The notes beneath the pieces were generated by a model. It did not search any database. It had not been told where the DNA came from and saw only the letters and a list, made by a program, of their open reading frames with translations. This document shows positions 37,177 to 41,876 of a stretch of DNA of 64,000 bases, piece after piece. Numbering within the stretch: position 1 is the first letter of the stretch; each line of letters opens with the position of its first letter. The stretch spans positions 15,231-79,230 of the forward strand of contig CACGEW010000006.1 in assembly GCA_902572345.1 (NCBI GenBank), written 5' to 3'. A program made the position numbers and the translations under genes. Origin of the DNA: an uncultured Pelagibacteraceae bacterium. Lineage in GTDB: Bacteria > Pseudomonadota > Alphaproteobacteria > Pelagibacterales > Pelagibacteraceae.

Positions 37177-37205
37177 TTGACCTCTAAAATACGCCTCTAT
37201 ATAAA
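37177..37205 (+). promoter_or_regulatory. Candidate sigma-70 promoter of the apr operon
   Basis: TTGACC (37177-82) is followed 15-17 nt later by TATATAAA (37198-37205). The aprM ATG at 37212 follows with no visible Shine-Dalgarno sequence. Confidence 0.35.
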
Positions 37206-37211
37206 AGCTCA

Positions 37212-38006
37212 ATGATAACAAACAATCCATTTTCAACTCTAGCTGAAATAGTTCCAGCAATTGCAATGCAAGGATTTGTCGTAGCTATGGCAGCTCTTAC
37301 ATTAATTGGTGTGTTAGTTGATATTCTTCATAAAAAAAACGTTAAATACTTTTTTGAAAATGCAAAAAAAGCAAAAAAAAATGCTCAAGTTGAGCTAACA
37401 ACTGGAAAAAGAACTGCGGTCATTTTAAAAACTGTGGCTCATGATATTGCAACAACCTCAGAACTTGGCTGGGGCAAAAGAAGGTTGGCTCACGTTTTAG
37501 GCATGTATGGGACAATCATTTTTTGGATTTGTTCAGCTATTTTAATTTTTTCTTATTCATCTGTTGGTATTGAAACTCCACCAGTTTTAACAGCATTATG
37601 GCATATAGGAGCAATTTTAACTTGTTTAGGAGGTTATTGGTTTTGGTTTTTTTTAAGGGTTGATGTTTCTGCAGAGGCACATCCTTGGTACAGAATTATT
37701 AAAGCAGATTTATTTGTTTTGGCATTATTAGCCTGTGCAACATTTGGTTTGGCATGGTCATATGCACAACATTCAGGCATGGTTGGTCTTAGTTATTTAT
37801 TTTTAGTTTTATTTATTGTTTCAAATTTAGTTTTATTTGGAGGTGTATATTGGTCGAAATTTGCACACATGTTTTATAAACCTGGTGCAGCGATTCAAAA
37901 AAATTTAGCAGAAGCTGATGGTTCTAGAGACAATTTGCCACCACCGGCCGATGCTCCAGAGCAATTTGGTCTAGGAATTAAAAGAGAACAACCAAAGCAT
38001 TATTAG
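37212..38006 (+). CDS. aprM: Putative APS reductase membrane anchor AprM
   Basis: It is a polytopic membrane protein located directly upstream of aprBA. That is the arrangement described for the aprMBA type of sulfur oxidizers and SAR11. Confidence 0.6.
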   Translation: MITNNPFSTLAEIVPAIAMQGFVVAMAALTLIGVLVDILHKKNVKYFFENAKKAKKNAQVELTTGKRTAVILKTVAHDIATTSELGWGKRRLAHVLGMYGTIIFWICSAILIFSYSSVGIETPPVLTALWHIGAILTCLGGYWFWFFLRVDVSAEAHPWYRIIKADLFVLALLACATFGLAWSYAQHSGMVGLSYLFLVLFIVSNLVLFGGVYWSKFAHMFYKPGAAIQKNLAEADGSRDNLPPPADAPEQFGLGIKREQPKHY

Positions 38007-38046
38007 GAAATTTATGTTATTAAACTTTAAGGAAAAAAAATAATTT

Positions 38047-38517
38047 ATGTCAACTTTTGTATACATGACAAGATGTGATGGCTGTGGACACTGCGTAGAT
38101 ATTTGTCCATCAGATATAATGCATATCGATGAAACAATCAGACGAGCAAAAAATATCGAGCCTAACTTTTGTTGGGAATGTTATTCGTGTGTAAAAGCTT
38201 GTCCTAATCATGCAATCGATGTACGAGGATACGCTGACTTTGCACCAATGGGACATAGCGTAAGAGTAAGAAGAGAAGAGGAAAAAGGGACCATTTCATG
38301 GAGAATAAAATTCAGAAATGGAACAGAAAAAAATTTCGTTTCACCGATTACAACAAAACCTTGGGGTAAATTTATTCCTAAACTAGCCGAAGAAGACAAA
38401 CCAAATCAAGGAGAGATAACTACTCAAAGACTTTATACAGAACCTAAGGGTTTAAATATTGACGGAGATCTTCCAACTGTAAGTAAAGACTCGTTTAAAA
38501 AAGGTGTTTACTATTAA
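38047..38517 (+). CDS. aprB: Adenylylsulfate (APS) reductase beta subunit
   Basis: It has two ferredoxin-like clusters, CDGCGHCVDICP and CWECYSCVKACP, plus the AprB-type C-terminal tail. Confidence 0.85.
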   Translation: MSTFVYMTRCDGCGHCVDICPSDIMHIDETIRRAKNIEPNFCWECYSCVKACPNHAIDVRGYADFAPMGHSVRVRREEEKGTISWRIKFRNGTEKNFVSPITTKPWGKFIPKLAEEDKPNQGEITTQRLYTEPKGLNIDGDLPTVSKDSFKKGVYY

Positions 38518-40376: not shown

Positions 40377-40382
40377 AGTTTA

Positions 40383-40733
40383 ATGGAGCTATTAGAAAAA
40401 TCCGACAAAGAGATCAAAGATATTGCTCAGCCAATCTGGGATAATTTGGTTAAATCATCAAATATCAAAGATTACGGTGGCTTCACTAAAGACTTTTCAT
40501 CACAAATGCTTTACGGAGCAAATGAAGTTGAGTTAGGTAAACAGTGGGCTAATAATAAACTTCTTACAAGTCTCTCAGAGAAACAAGAGTTTTTAGGTAC
40601 AATTAGAAGAAATCAATTTATTACAGTTCTTTATAAACAAACAAGCCAAACAATGCCTGGAGAATTTCTAGGTAGGCTAGTTCTAGGCGAAGAAGACGGT
40701 CTTGTAAAAGTTTTTGGAGCTACAATTTATTAA
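40383..40733 (+). CDS. Hypothetical 116-aa protein within the apr-tauE operon
   Basis: The ORF begins 6 nt after aprA. It is soluble, and no family was recognised. Confidence 0.5.
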   Translation: MELLEKSDKEIKDIAQPIWDNLVKSSNIKDYGGFTKDFSSQMLYGANEVELGKQWANNKLLTSLSEKQEFLGTIRRNQFITVLYKQTSQTMPGEFLGRLVLGEEDGLVKVFGATIY

Positions 40734-40772
40734 GATTGACAACTTAATGTTTCAGGCATAATCCTAATATCA

Positions 40773-41876
40773 ATGCTCGAAATTTATCTACCCATCGCCC
40801 AAGTAAATATAGACATTTTTCTTTTATTATTTTTAAGTTTAGCTGTTGGAGTTTTATCAGGTCTCTTTGGTGTTGGAGGAGGATTCTTGATGACACCATT
40901 TTTAATTTTTATGGGCATACCTCCGGTGTATGCAGTTCCAAATGAAGTTAATAACATACTTGCTACCTCAGTATCTGGTTCACTTACTCACTGGTATAAA
41001 AAAACTTTAGATTACAAGATGGGTTTAATGATTGTTTCGGGAGGTGTAGTTGGAACTATCATAGGAATTATGACATTTACTTTTTTTTCAGAAATTGGAA
41101 AAATAAGTTTAATAATTTCTTTATTATATATGTATCTTCTAGCAATTGTTGGTACATTAATGTTGATTGAAGTTATTAGAGAGAGAAACCGTTTAAAATC
41201 TAAAACACAGACTAAAAAAAAATTACACGATCATAATTGGTTACAAGGCCTTCCTTTAAGAATGAGGTTTAACAAATCTAGATTGTATGAAAGTGCATTC
41301 ACTCCTGTTTTATTAGGATTTGTTGTTGGATTTGTTGCATCAATGATGGGAATAGGGGGCGCGTTCTTAATGGTGCCTGCTATGATTTATATTATAGGAA
41401 TGCCTGTAAAATTAATTCCCGGGACCTCATTGTTTGTTACTGTTTTCATTAGTGCGGTGGTAACAATTTTACATTCTTTTAATTACGGAACTATTGATTT
41501 ATTTCTTGTAGTTCCTTTGATCTTAGGTTCAATTGTTGGAGTTCAAGTAGGCCAAAAAATTGGTCAATTTTTAGATAGCAATGAGCTTAAATCTTTATTT
41601 GCAATGCTTTTAATAACTGTAGCTATAGCAATCGCCTACGACTCTTTCTTCAGAAAAAAAACAGAATTTAACGGAAGTAAAGTTGCAGCACCAGAATTAA
41701 ACAGTTTAGCAGAGTTTATTTTAAAAATGTCTAATGATGTACCGTTCTTATATGGAGCCTTTGCAATAATTCTTGCGGTTGTGCTTGGAGCATTTATGGC
41801 ATGGATTAGAAAAATTGCTCATGATTTAAGACACAAAAAACCAAAACAAGAAGAAGTTAAATTTCCAGTAAAATAA
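40773..41876 (+). CDS. tauE: TauE/SafE (DUF81) family sulfite/anion exporter
   Basis: It has two 4-TM halves with GVGGGFLMTP and GIGGAFLMVP motifs, separated by a basic loop. Confidence 0.75.
   Translation: MLEIYLPIAQVNIDIFLLLFLSLAVGVLSGLFGVGGGFLMTPFLIFMGIPPVYAVPNEVNNILATSVSGSLTHWYKKTLDYKMGLMIVSGGVVGTIIGIMTFTFFSEIGKISLIISLLYMYLLAIVGTLMLIEVIRERNRLKSKTQTKKKLHDHNWLQGLPLRMRFNKSRLYESAFTPVLLGFVVGFVASMMGIGGAFLMVPAMIYIIGMPVKLIPGTSLFVTVFISAVVTILHSFNYGTIDLFLVVPLILGSIVGVQVGQKIGQFLDSNELKSLFAMLLITVAIAIAYDSFFRKKTEFNGSKVAAPELNSLAEFILKMSNDVPFLYGAFAIILAVVLGAFMAWIRKIAHDLRHKKPKQEEVKFPVK

What the first reader, a model, noticed from the sequence alone, without database searches (positions are those of the whole stretch)
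37177..41876. aprM-aprB-aprA-orf116-tauE: a dissimilatory-type APS reductase operon in an apparent aerobic heterotroph, wired to sulfonate desulfonation
The operon encodes a membrane anchor (AprM), the Fe-S subunit AprB, the flavoprotein AprA, an unknown 116-aa protein and a TauE/SafE exporter. It lies immediately beside two sulfite-releasing enzymes, SuyAB-like and Xsc.

The simplest reading is that AprBA runs in the oxidative direction (sulfite + AMP to APS), delivers electrons to the quinone pool via AprM, and so detoxifies sulfite from organosulfonates. aprMBA in SAR11 has been noted in the literature, but its physiological partners remain incompletely defined.
Basis: partly seen in the sequence, partly recalled or inferred. 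Interest (0 to 1): 0.6.

Follow-up and report, generated by a model that had tools for sequence, protein, structure and literature searches.

The report
SAR11 sulfite-oxidising APS reductase operon
This is the standard, already published gene cluster that the ocean bacterium SAR11 uses to oxidise toxic sulfite released from algal and animal sulfonates; two questions stay open, namely what the small conserved fourth gene does and how the product APS is turned into sulfate without the usual enzyme.

Summary
Window 37212-41876 (+) holds aprM, aprB, aprA, a 116-aa ORF and tauE, tightly spaced. AprB and AprA score far above NCBIfam's equivalog cut-offs. The genome is a Pelagibacteraceae (SAR11) single-cell assembly.

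AprA falls in the AprM-type (oxidative, "lineage I") clade and keeps all active-site residues. The genome shows no Sat, APS kinase, PAPS reductase, sulfite reductase, SorA or SoeA. Oxidising sulfite from the adjacent SuyAB-like lyase and Xsc is therefore the only coherent direction.

This reading is already in print for SAR11 (PMC2211403, PMC5069961, PMC12636525), so the finding is correct but not new. The scan has also reached it before on other SAR11 DNA.

- **orf116.** It is an NTF2-fold protein that sits directly behind aprA in every AprM-type locus examined, inside and outside SAR11. It was not found in the AprM-less loci checked.
- **tauE, suyAB and xsc.** They are conserved neighbours in SAR11.
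- **APS fate.** Two small genes recur beside the operon in several arrangements: a Fhit-like HIT protein and a 126-aa adenylyltransferase. They are the best, still untested, candidates for converting APS to sulfate.

The parts
37177..37211 (+). Spacer before aprM holding a promoter-like TTGACC, about 15-16 nt, then TATATA/ATATAA
   Evidence: Read directly from the sequence. The consensus scan did not list it. Inference only.
37212..38006 (+). aprM: membrane anchor and presumed electron exit of the APS reductase
   Evidence: 264 aa with about 5 hydrophobic helices. Weak homology to the QmoC membrane domain. 42-74% identical to the gene that precedes aprBA in SAR11 and non-SAR11 AprM-type loci. 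Invariant H40, H94, H219, H263 and a conserved C-terminal GxGIKRE..HY tail.
38047..38517 (+). aprB: iron-sulfur subunit with two [4Fe-4S] clusters
   Evidence: TIGR02060, 188.6 bits against 135.65; PF12139 APS-reductase_C. Aligns to the AprB chains of PDB 3GYX and 1JNR. It lacks the sulfate-reducer-type loop after CDGC and has a Glu-rich insertion.
38517..40376 (+). aprA: FAD subunit and catalytic site
   Evidence: TIGR02061, 993.8 bits against 641.75. Full-length alignment to A. fulgidus AprA 1JNR at 662 bits, with the N74, Y95, E141, W234, R265, V273, G274, L278, R317 and H398 equivalents conserved. Falls in the AprM-type clade.
40383..40733 (+). orf116: NTF2-fold protein, conserved fourth gene of AprM-type apr operons
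   Evidence: AlphaFold2 model with pLDDT 95.7. NTF2/SnoaL-like matches at Z 10-11 and Foldseek E 9e-4. Directly 3' of aprA in all SAR11 loci that reach past aprA and in all non-SAR11 AprM-type loci seen.
40773..41876 (+). tauE: TauE/SafE-family anion exporter (sulfite or sulfate)
   Evidence: PF01925, 163 bits. About 8-9 hydrophobic segments. Follows orf116 in most SAR11 loci.
36779..37159 (+). Associated gene: 126-aa HxGH/ISxTxxR adenylyltransferase-type protein (called NT126 here), a candidate APS-handling enzyme
   Evidence: Sub-threshold hits to CTP_transf_like and ATP-sulfurylase. Nearest by sequence and fold to NMNAT and PPAT. Same genus-level distribution as aprA. Adjacent to apr in at least four arrangements.
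41877..42275 (-). Associated gene: Fhit-like HIT protein, a candidate APS hydrolase or phosphorylase; last gene of the suyA-suyB-HIT unit
   Evidence: PF01230, 67 bits, with an intact HCHIHLI triad. Nearest solved relatives are Fhit, NitFhit and Ap4A phosphorylase. Sits directly upstream of aprM in about 52 of 80 SAR11 loci.
42275..43792 (-). SuyB-like (42275-43441) and SuyA-like (43448-43792; the true start is probably further in) sulfo-lyase, a source of sulfite
   Evidence: GD_AH_C and GD_AH_second domains in a split two-gene form. Named suyAB for Pelagibacteraceae in PMC12636525. Conserved next to the apr genes.
43811..45592 (+). xsc: sulfoacetaldehyde acetyltransferase, a source of sulfite
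   Evidence: TIGR03457, 969.7 bits against 676.4; NF005713, 1036 bits.

Best explanation
The five genes are the SAR11 version of the membrane-anchored, AprM-type (Apr lineage I) dissimilatory APS reductase operon, and it runs in the oxidative direction.

1. Sulfite is released in the cytoplasm by Xsc (from sulfoacetaldehyde, i.e. taurine or isethionate) and by the SuyAB-like lyase (from sulfolactate, i.e. DHPS or cysteate).
2. Sulfite adds to the FAD of AprA and is joined to AMP to give APS.
3. The two electrons pass through the two [4Fe-4S] clusters of AprB to AprM and from there, presumably, to the quinone pool and the aerobic chain.
4. orf116 is a small cysteine-free NTF2-fold protein specific to AprM-type enzymes. 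It is most likely a non-catalytic partner or assembly factor of the AprM-AprBA complex.
5. TauE exports the sulfur oxyanion (sulfite overflow and/or sulfate).
6. No ATP sulfurylase was found, so APS must be discharged another way. The likeliest routes are the Fhit-like HIT protein (hydrolysis to AMP plus sulfate, or phosphorolysis to ADP plus sulfate) and/or the 126-aa adenylyltransferase encoded just upstream of aprM.

Shown here: gene identities, lineage, synteny, co-occurrence, and the failure to find alternative routes. Inferred: direction of catalysis, quinone coupling, the role of orf116, the substrate of TauE, and the fate of APS.

My odds: identity and oxidative role 0.85-0.9; orf116 as a partner of the AprM-type enzyme 0.7; HIT acts on APS in vivo 0.45; the 126-aa protein acts as a Sat substitute 0.15-0.2.
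For: **Identity.** AprB and AprA score above the equivalog cut-offs. AprA aligns over its full length to A. fulgidus AprA with all active-site residues listed in PMC2211403 conserved.

**Lineage.** The AprA tree separates AprM-type from AprM-less enzymes at 100/100, and the window falls in the AprM clade. AprA is about 72% identical to AprM-type AprA and 46-49% to AprM-less AprA. It has the lineage-I Ile at the F261 position, and AprB has the lineage-I loop features.

**Direction.** None of the following was found in the 92%-complete genome: Sat, APS kinase, PAPS reductase above cut-off, NIR_SIR sulfite reductase, SorA-type sulfite oxidase. The only molybdopterin enzyme is NuoG.

**Wiring.** In 80 SAR11 loci, aprM>aprB>aprA>orf116 is invariant wherever the contig allows. 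tauE, suyB/suyA and xsc follow in most.

**orf116.**
- Found in 116 of 151 Pelagibacterales genomes against 115 with AprA, in the same genera; the mismatches lie at contig edges.
- Every homolog of at least 45% identity lies directly 3' of aprA, including in non-SAR11 Alphaproteobacteria and other Pseudomonadota.
- Present in all AprM-type loci looked at and not found beside aprA in the six AprM-less loci examined.

**APS fate.**
- Sat is present in only 4 of 151 Pelagibacterales.
- At E <= 1e-10, HIT was found in 72 of 90 sampled genomes of the own family and in none of 60 of the second family. It lies either upstream of aprM or at the end of the suyAB unit.
- Fhit-type proteins are adenylylsulfatases, and some HIT proteins are APS phosphorylases (PMC4613722).

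**Published physiology.** aprB and aprA transcripts are 3.1- and 5.9-fold lower under sulfur limitation in P. ubique (PMC5069961).
Against: - No experiment on this genome or enzyme was possible, so direction and quinone coupling are inferred.
- According to PMC10356861, cultured SAR11 has not been shown to excrete sulfate from taurine.
- AprM has no recognised cofactor motif, only four invariant histidines.
- HIT is missing from some apr-positive genomes (G146 of the same genus, G105, G124, G131 and others) and from the whole second family.
- The 126-aa protein looks most like NMNAT or PPAT, not Sat. Its model is poor (pLDDT 66.9). Look-alike clusters are largely viral 'cytidyltransferases'. 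It is retained in G123, and it is also found in G142, where neither AprA nor orf116 was found.
- The genome is 92% complete, so failures to find a gene are not proof of absence.
Confidence: 0.8

Rival explanations
1. The enzyme's main role is energy conservation rather than detoxification. Sulfite from sulfonates serves as an auxiliary electron donor to the respiratory chain. If APS is phosphorolysed to ADP or converted to ATP, it also yields substrate-level phosphorylation. The chemistry is the same; the physiological emphasis differs.
For: The membrane anchor AprM is conserved with AprBA. [quoted passage not shown]
Against: No Sat was found here or in 147 of 151 Pelagibacterales. If the HIT protein merely hydrolyses APS, the anhydride energy is lost. 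Genomics alone cannot separate detoxification from energy gain.
Confidence: 0.3
2. APS is the wanted product, not a waste intermediate. It is phosphorylated to PAPS by the small APS-kinase-like protein that is paired with the 126-aa nucleotidyltransferase in other SAR11 clades. PAPS is used for sulfation, and CysQ recycles the resulting PAP.
For: In Pelagibacter proper and in the second family, a 135-164-aa P-loop kinase overlaps the 126-aa gene. Its best NCBIfam matches are all APS-kinase models (E about 1e-8), and it scores PF01583 at 28.9 bits against a cut-off of 21.1. In PMC5069961 Table 3, cysC is listed in exactly the strains that have aprA. cysQ lies 6 kb upstream in this window.
Against: The kinase was not found in this genome by tblastn or by PF01583. 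The matches cover only the P-loop half and fall far below the NCBIfam cut-offs. I did not look for a sulfotransferase. CysQ is also needed for the 3',5'-ADP made during ACP phosphopantetheinylation (established biochemistry).
Confidence: 0.1
3. AprBA works reductively (APS to sulfite) as a remnant of, or part of, sulfate assimilation or dissimilation.
For: The enzyme is reversible in principle (PMC2211403). Older annotation places aprBA under 'assimilatory sulfate reduction' (discussed in PMC5069961).
Against: No Sat or CysDN-type sulfate activation, no sulfite reductase and no PAPS reductase were found. AprA is in the oxidative AprM-type clade. The neighbours produce sulfite rather than consume it. 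SAR11 is described in the literature as unable to reduce sulfate.
Confidence: 0.03
4. The 126-aa nucleotidyltransferase (with its kinase partner) is a split NadR-like nicotinamide riboside salvage pair or another cofactor adenylyltransferase. On this view its position beside the apr genes is incidental.
For: The best sequence and fold matches are NMNAT, NadM, NadR and PPAT. Its GRWQPWHxGH and ISATKIR motifs resemble archaeal-type NMNAT. Look-alike clusters are viral 'cytidyltransferases'. In Pelagibacter proper it lies about 47 kb from the apr genes. It is kept in the apr-less genome G123.
Against: It is adjacent to the apr genes in at least four different arrangements. Its genus-level presence and absence match those of aprA. 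The partner kinase matches APS-kinase models best, not ribosylnicotinamide kinase.
Confidence: 0.5

Closest known systems
aprMBA locus of 'Candidatus Pelagibacter ubique' HTCC1062 and other SAR11 (Apr lineage I of Meyer & Kuever; PMC2211403, PMC5069961, PMC12636525)
   Same: Same order of bacteria. AprA is 89-93% identical to Pelagibacter AprA. It has the same aprM-aprB-aprA-small ORF-tauE-suyAB-xsc neighbourhood and the same published interpretation (sulfite removal).
   Different: In most Pelagibacter loci a HIT gene precedes aprM. Here, and in about 10 of 80 loci, the pair CADD plus the 126-aa nucleotidyltransferase precedes aprM, and the HIT gene sits at the end of the suyAB unit, convergent with tauE.
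sat-aprMBA operon of Allochromatium vinosum and other lineage-I sulfur oxidisers (PMC3779200)
   Same: The membrane protein AprM (five predicted helices) precedes aprBA. Sulfite is oxidised to APS, and AprM is proposed as the electron entry point into the membrane.
   Different: No sat was found. The organism is an aerobic heterotroph that takes sulfite from organosulfonates rather than from sulfide or sulfur oxidation. A TauE exporter is in the operon. The gene behind aprA is not mentioned in the passages of that paper that I searched.
aprBA with QmoABC or HdrAACB (Apr lineage II and sulfate reducers; PDB 1JNR, 3GYX)
   Same: Same enzyme family, cofactors and active-site residues.
   Different: Only 46-49% identity in AprA. 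No Qmo was found in this genome apart from AprM's weak match to QmoC. The sulfate-reducer-type loop in AprB is missing. orf116 was not found beside the lineage-II aprA genes examined.
NTF2-like superfamily (SnoaL, ketosteroid isomerase, scytalone dehydratase, NTF2, 'cystatin-like' domains of unknown function), for orf116
   Same: Same alpha+beta cone fold: Z 10-11, about 105 of 116 residues aligned, rmsd about 3 A.
   Different: Sequence identity is only 8-16%. No Pfam family matches. No catalytic residues of the enzymatic members were recognised; the nearly invariant positions are A15, W19, N27, F34, Q54, L96 and L101. Fold alone does not give function.
Fhit / Ap4A-phosphorylase branch of the HIT superfamily, for the neighbouring HIT gene
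   Same: Intact HxHxHxx triad. The best solved relatives are HIT proteins including NitFhit, Fhit and M. tuberculosis Ap4A phosphorylase. Fhit proteins hydrolyse APS, and some HIT proteins phosphorolyse it.
   Different: Activity on APS has not been tested for this protein. It also carries an N-terminal CxxC (CIFC) motif, which from memory is more typical of Hint-type members.

Membership tests
Dissimilatory adenylylsulfate (APS) reductase AprBA | Alpha subunit matches the aprA equivalog model above its curated cut-off and is not a fumarate reductase paralog | tested here: met
   TIGR02061, 993.8 bits against 641.75. The best fumarate reductase/SDH model scores 225.6 bits against a cut-off of 587.
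Dissimilatory adenylylsulfate (APS) reductase AprBA | Beta subunit has two [4Fe-4S] motifs plus the APS-reductase C-terminal segment | tested here: met
   TIGR02060, 188.6 bits against 135.65. PF12139, 109.7 bits, plus Fer4 dicluster hits.
Dissimilatory adenylylsulfate (APS) reductase AprBA | Active-site residues of A. fulgidus AprA: Asn-A74, Trp-A234, Arg-A265, His-A398; also Arg-A317, Leu-A278, Val-A273, Gly-A274, Tyr-A95 | tested here: met
   All are conserved in the phmmer alignment to 1JNR chain A. The residue list is taken from PMC2211403.
Dissimilatory adenylylsulfate (APS) reductase AprBA | Sulfite- and AMP-dependent redox activity, with FAD and Fe-S cofactors bound | not testable with these tools
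   Needs purified protein.
Apr lineage I (oxidative, AprM-type) of Meyer & Kuever | aprM, encoding a membrane protein, directly precedes aprBA, and no qmoABC is present | tested here: met
   aprM lies 40 nt upstream of aprB. In the genome, the QmoC model hits only AprM itself plus two weak ferredoxin-like stretches. I did not search for qmoA or qmoB separately.
Apr lineage I (oxidative, AprM-type) of Meyer & Kuever | AprA groups phylogenetically with AprM-associated enzymes, apart from the sulfate-reducer/lineage-II type | tested here: met
   The AprM-type clade has 100/100 support (8 AprM-type against 6 AprM-less sequences).
Apr lineage I (oxidative, AprM-type) of Meyer & Kuever | AprB lacks the charged loop after the first Cys motif and carries an acidic insertion in the beta-sheet segment; AprA has Ile at the Phe-A261 position | tested here: met
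   The query reads CDGC--G---HC where D. gigas reads CDGCKGGEKTAC. It has the insertion REEEKG and NRIV at the HRFI position. The criteria come from PMC2211403.
TauE/SafE (DUF81) anion exporters | Matches PF01925 over the full profile and is a polytopic membrane protein | tested here: met
   163 bits, profile positions 1-236 of 237. About 8-9 hydrophobic segments.
TauE/SafE (DUF81) anion exporters | Exports sulfite (or sulfate or sulfoacetate) | not testable with these tools
   The substrate cannot be read from the sequence. At 367 aa the protein is longer than the 237-position Pfam profile, with an extra loop and a C-terminal helix.
NTF2-like superfamily (orf116) | Alpha+beta cone fold: three helices packed on a curved antiparallel sheet | tested here: met
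   Model pLDDT 95.7, helices at 8-62 and four strands at 69-115. VIA Z 9-11 to many NTF2-like chains. Foldseek probability 1.0, E 9e-4 to 1e-2.
NTF2-like superfamily (orf116) | Sequence membership in a named NTF2-like Pfam family (SnoaL, DUF4440 and so on) | tested here: not met
   No Pfam or NCBIfam hit even at E <= 1. The Atlas neighbours carry no common family.
ATP sulfurylase (Sat), considered for the 126-aa upstream protein | Matches PF01747 above its cut-off, with the PUA-like and catalytic domain architecture | tested here: not met
   16.9 bits against a cut-off of 24.3, over residues 22-83 only. The protein is 126 aa against about 390 aa for the G214 Sat. No Sat appears among the fold matches. 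It could still work like a Sat, but it is not a member.
HIT superfamily, Fhit-like branch (neighbouring HIT gene) | HIT domain with the HxHxHxx motif | tested here: met
   PF01230, 67.1 bits against 21.5. The motif reads HCHIHLI.
HIT superfamily, Fhit-like branch (neighbouring HIT gene) | APS hydrolase or APS:phosphate adenylyltransferase activity | not testable with these tools
   Known for Fhit, Hint4 and DcpS. Untested for this protein.

The most novel reading that the evidence does not exclude
AprM-type APS reductase is really a four-part system whose NTF2-fold fourth protein (orf116) is needed for assembly or membrane coupling. In addition, Sat-less SAR11 completes sulfite oxidation with non-homologous substitutes encoded beside the operon: the Fhit-like HIT protein (APS to AMP or ADP plus sulfate) and/or the 126-aa adenylyltransferase acting as a minimal ATP sulfurylase. 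This would close a gap in the sulfur budget of the ocean's most abundant heterotroph.
Probability: 0.35. Interest if true: 0.7.

Novelty: already known. Interest (0 to 1): 0.35.

Why it matters
SAR11 makes up a large share of surface-ocean bacteria, and organosulfonates such as taurine and DHPS are major currencies of marine carbon and sulfur flow. The apr operon is the only recognisable sulfite-oxidising system in these genomes, and aprAB is among their most strongly conserved genes (PMC12636525).

The operon and its reading are already published, so the finding as written adds little. What remains worth pursuing is concrete and testable:
- Which enzyme converts APS to sulfate when Sat is absent, and whether ADP or ATP is gained in the process.
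- What the universally linked NTF2-fold protein does for AprM-type enzymes. This applies equally to the sulfur oxidisers outside SAR11 that carry the same gene.

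Tried and rejected
Rejected: the aprA equivalog scores 994 bits, while the fumarate reductase/SDH models stay far below their cut-offs.
- **Reductive or assimilatory role.** Rejected: no Sat, APS kinase, PAPS reductase or sulfite reductase was found.
- **Alternative sulfite dehydrogenases.** There is no PF00174 hit, and the single PF00384 hit is NuoG.
- **Context of distant orf116 homologs through the look-up of encoding contigs.** I used the genome search and the fetch from genomes instead.
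- **The search for related loci with a mixed AprA alignment, to obtain named sulfur oxidisers for the tree.** It returned only Pelagibacterales.
- **orf116 as the Sat substitute.** Rejected, because it coexists with sat in non-SAR11 AprM-type loci.
- **Structure of the 126-aa protein, to tell Sat-like from NMNAT-like.** The model was too poor to decide (pLDDT 66.9). The weak matches are to PPAT, NMNAT and NadR.
- **Distant orf116 paralogs** (22-36% identity; L019/L022, L034-L038, L040). No aprA lies within 1.5 kb of them. I listed their neighbours' sizes but did not annotate them.
- **Promoter and terminator scan of 35.9-46.4 kb.** It gave fewer promoter-like sites than shuffled sequence and nothing decisive about transcript ends.

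Full report
**What is there**

The window is AT-rich, about 30% G+C. Its genome is a 0.99-Mb, 21-contig assembly estimated at 92% complete. AprA is 100% identical to a contig of 'uncultured Pelagibacteraceae bacterium isolate AG-919-F21', and the 80 nearest AprA loci in the species-genome collection are all Pelagibacterales. The organism is therefore SAR11.

On the + strand lie five tightly spaced ORFs, separated by 40, -1, 6 and 39 nt:

| Coordinates | Length | Gene |
|---|---|---|
| 37212-38006 | 264 aa | aprM |
| 38047-38517 | 156 aa | aprB |
| 38517-40376 | 619 aa | aprA |
| 40383-40733 | 116 aa | orf116 |
| 40773-41876 | 367 aa | tauE |

AprB and AprA pass NCBIfam's equivalog cut-offs by a wide margin: 188.6 against 135.65 bits and 993.8 against 641.75 bits. 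TauE matches PF01925 at 163 bits.

The 264-aa protein has no Pfam family. It has about five hydrophobic helices and a weak match to the membrane half of QmoC. It is 42-74% identical to the gene that precedes aprBA in other SAR11 and non-SAR11 loci. This fits the published description of AprM (PMC3779200).

**Lineage and direction**

AprA aligns end to end with the solved A. fulgidus enzyme (662 bits). I counted residue positions in that alignment. The equivalents of Asn-A74, Tyr-A95, Glu-A141, Trp-A234, Arg-A265, Val-A273, Gly-A274, Leu-A278, Arg-A317 and His-A398 are all present. These are the active-site and channel residues listed in PMC2211403. The Phe-A261 position holds Ile, which the same paper gives as the lineage-I state.

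AprB lacks the charged loop that sulfate-reducer-type proteins carry after the first CxxC, and it has a Glu-rich insertion. Both are lineage-I features in that paper.

A maximum-likelihood tree of 14 AprA sequences from genomes sampled here splits AprM-type from AprM-less enzymes with 100/100 support. The window falls among SAR11 inside the AprM clade. Identity to AprM-type AprA outside SAR11 is about 72%; identity to AprM-less AprA is 46-49%.

The genome search found none of the following:
- ATP sulfurylase
- APS kinase
- PAPS reductase above cut-off
- sirohaem sulfite reductase
- SorA-type sulfite oxidase
- any molybdopterin enzyme other than NuoG

With sulfite producers next door and no way to make APS from sulfate or to reduce sulfite further, the oxidative direction is the only coherent one. 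This is an inference from gene content in a 92%-complete genome, not a measurement.

**Wiring to sulfonates**

Downstream on the opposite strand lie a HIT gene (41877-42275), a SuyB-like gene (42275-43441) and a SuyA-like gene (43448-43792). Then xsc follows on the + strand (43811-45592; TIGR03457, 969.7 bits against 676.4).

In 80 SAR11 apr loci the order aprM>aprB>aprA>orf116 never varies where the contig allows. tauE follows in most, and suyB/suyA and xsc follow in most, sometimes with a YeiH-type gene in between. The neighbourhood is thus a conserved SAR11 feature.

A same-genus genome (G123) lacks aprMBA-orf116, HIT, suyAB and xsc together. It keeps CADD, the 126-aa gene and tauE side by side. 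The apr genes and the desulfonation genes are therefore gained or lost together.

**What is already published**

- P. ubique AprBA was placed in sulfur-oxidiser lineage I with aprM in 2007-2008 (PMC2211403).
- Several papers state that SAR11 uses AprBA to remove sulfite from organosulfur breakdown and that most SAR11 lack Sat (PMC5864207, PMC10356861, PMC5069961).
- aprB and aprA transcripts fall 3.1- and 5.9-fold under sulfur limitation.

Earlier agents of this scan reached the same verdict on other SAR11 DNA.

**orf116**

It has no Pfam or NCBIfam family. Every database name found for it is 'hypothetical protein', although it has thousands of near-identical marine relatives.

Among 151 sampled Pelagibacterales genomes it occurs in 116 and AprA in 115, in the same genera. 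The few mismatches lie at contig ends.

Samples of 401 genomes each from the class and from the phylum gave 4 and 18 further genomes with a homolog. Every homolog of at least 45% identity lies directly behind aprA. More distant relatives (22-36% identity) do not.

In the phylum sample, the aprA genes followed by orf116 are the ones with aprM upstream. They often also have a SlyD-like gene after orf116 and sat nearby. The six aprA loci of the 46-49% class that I examined have neither aprM nor orf116. One of those six lies in G558, a genome that also carries the AprM-type copy.

A model built from 19 diverse homologs is confident (pLDDT 95.7). It has the NTF2/SnoaL cone fold: Z 10-11 over about 105 residues, Foldseek E down to 9e-4.

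The protein has no cysteine and no conserved histidine. The nearly invariant positions are A15, W19, N27, F34, Q54, L96 and L101. It coexists with sat outside SAR11, so it is not the Sat substitute.

The most economical reading is a non-catalytic partner or assembly factor specific to the AprM-coupled enzyme. That is an inference from co-occurrence and fold. I did not find it mentioned in the papers I read.

**The fate of APS**

Sat occurs in only 4 of 151 sampled Pelagibacterales. Two small genes recur beside the operon.

*The HIT protein.*
- It has an intact HCHIHLI triad. Its nearest solved relatives include NitFhit, Fhit and Ap4A phosphorylase.
- At E <= 1e-10 it was found in 72 of 90 sampled genomes of the own family and in none of 60 of the second family. 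In the rows I could check, no genome with the HIT gene lacks aprA.
- It sits directly upstream of aprM in about 52 of 80 loci. In this clade it sits instead at the end of the suyAB unit, abutting tauE.
- Fhit proteins hydrolyse APS, and some HIT proteins phosphorolyse it to ADP (PMC4613722).

*The 126-aa HxGH/ISxTxxR nucleotidyltransferase* (36779-37159).
- It lies 52 nt upstream of aprM here.
- It is convergent behind orf116 in the second family, divergent upstream in one locus, and about 47 kb away in Pelagibacter proper.
- Its genus-level presence and absence mirror those of aprA: 116 against 115 genomes, and none in the four genera without apr.
- In other clades it overlaps a small P-loop kinase whose best matches are APS-kinase models. 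That kinase was not found in this genome.

*Against the nucleotidyltransferase.*
- Its ATP-sulfurylase hit is below threshold (16.9 bits).
- Its closest sequence and fold matches are NMNAT, PPAT and NadR.
- Its model is poor.
- Look-alike clusters are largely viral.
- It survives in the apr-less genomes G123 and G142.
- It was not found in five non-SAR11 AprM-type genomes, at least three of which carry sat next to the operon.

I rate HIT acting on APS at about 0.45 and the nucleotidyltransferase as a Sat analogue at 0.15-0.2. Both need enzyme assays.

**Caveats**

- All presence and absence statements refer to sampled genomes and to a 92%-complete assembly. Related genomes are not independent observations.
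- The tallies include one unpublished genome (G111). No claim depends on it.

**Verdict**

The parts worth following up are the NTF2-fold fourth gene of AprM-type operons and the HIT and nucleotidyltransferase candidates for the missing APS-to-sulfate step.

Noticed in passing
window 36104-37159: A CADD-family (TIGR04305, 301.6 bits) gene is followed 9 nt later by the 126-aa nucleotidyltransferase. In the same-genus genome G146 an unannotatable 405-aa ORF lies between the two (L048 4344-5561), and in one SAR11 locus (L118) the order is kinase > nucleotidyltransferase > CADD > aprM.
   Followed up: partly
L051 (G123:C1:236000-254000): A same-genus genome lacks aprM-aprB-aprA-orf116, HIT, suyAB and xsc as a block. 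CADD, the 126-aa gene and tauE are directly adjacent there. It is a natural apr-less comparison strain.
   Followed up: partly
L020 9563-10072; L059 6927-7442; L060 9202-9705: In non-SAR11 AprM-type loci, orf116 is followed by a conserved protein of about 170 aa that looks SlyD/FKBP-like by eye but has no Pfam hit even at E <= 1. It is absent from the SAR11 loci.
   Followed up: partly
L050 6487-6894; L046 4289-4783; L049 3611-4108: A 135-165-aa P-loop kinase overlaps the start of the 126-aa nucleotidyltransferase gene in Pelagibacter proper and in the second Pelagibacterales family. Its best matches are APS-kinase models, all sub-threshold in NCBIfam. It is probably the 'cysC' of PMC5069961 Table 3, which is listed in the same strains as aprA.
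   Followed up: partly
G558 (L058, L059); also G633 and G725: Some Pseudomonadota genomes carry both an AprM-type apr locus with orf116 and a second, AprM-less aprBA locus. For G558 both loci were examined directly.
   Followed up: partly
window about 58634-59269 (-): A 302-aa PTA_PTB-family ORF (PF01515, 100.5 bits) lies about 13 kb downstream of xsc. It could convert the acetyl phosphate made by Xsc.
   Followed up: no
window 45603-46310 (+): A 235-aa FkbM-type methyltransferase-like ORF (PF05050, E 5e-7) starts 10 nt after xsc. It is not seen at this position in the Pelagibacter locus L047.
   Followed up: no
window 30332-31111 (-): A CysQ-like 3'(2'),5'-bisphosphate nucleotidase (TIGR01331, 206 bits, just under the cut-off of 228.8) lies 6 kb upstream of the apr genes and is syntenic in the same genus. 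It bears on the PAPS rival reading.
   Followed up: no
L047 10853-11923 (-): In many Pelagibacter loci a 356-aa PF03601 (YeiH-type) membrane protein sits between tauE and suyB. It is absent from this window.
   Followed up: no
Atlas look-up of the 126-aa protein: The nearest Atlas clusters of the 126-aa nucleotidyltransferase are 'putative cytidyltransferases' recorded mostly from viruses (Uroviricota). Phages may carry this gene.
   Followed up: no
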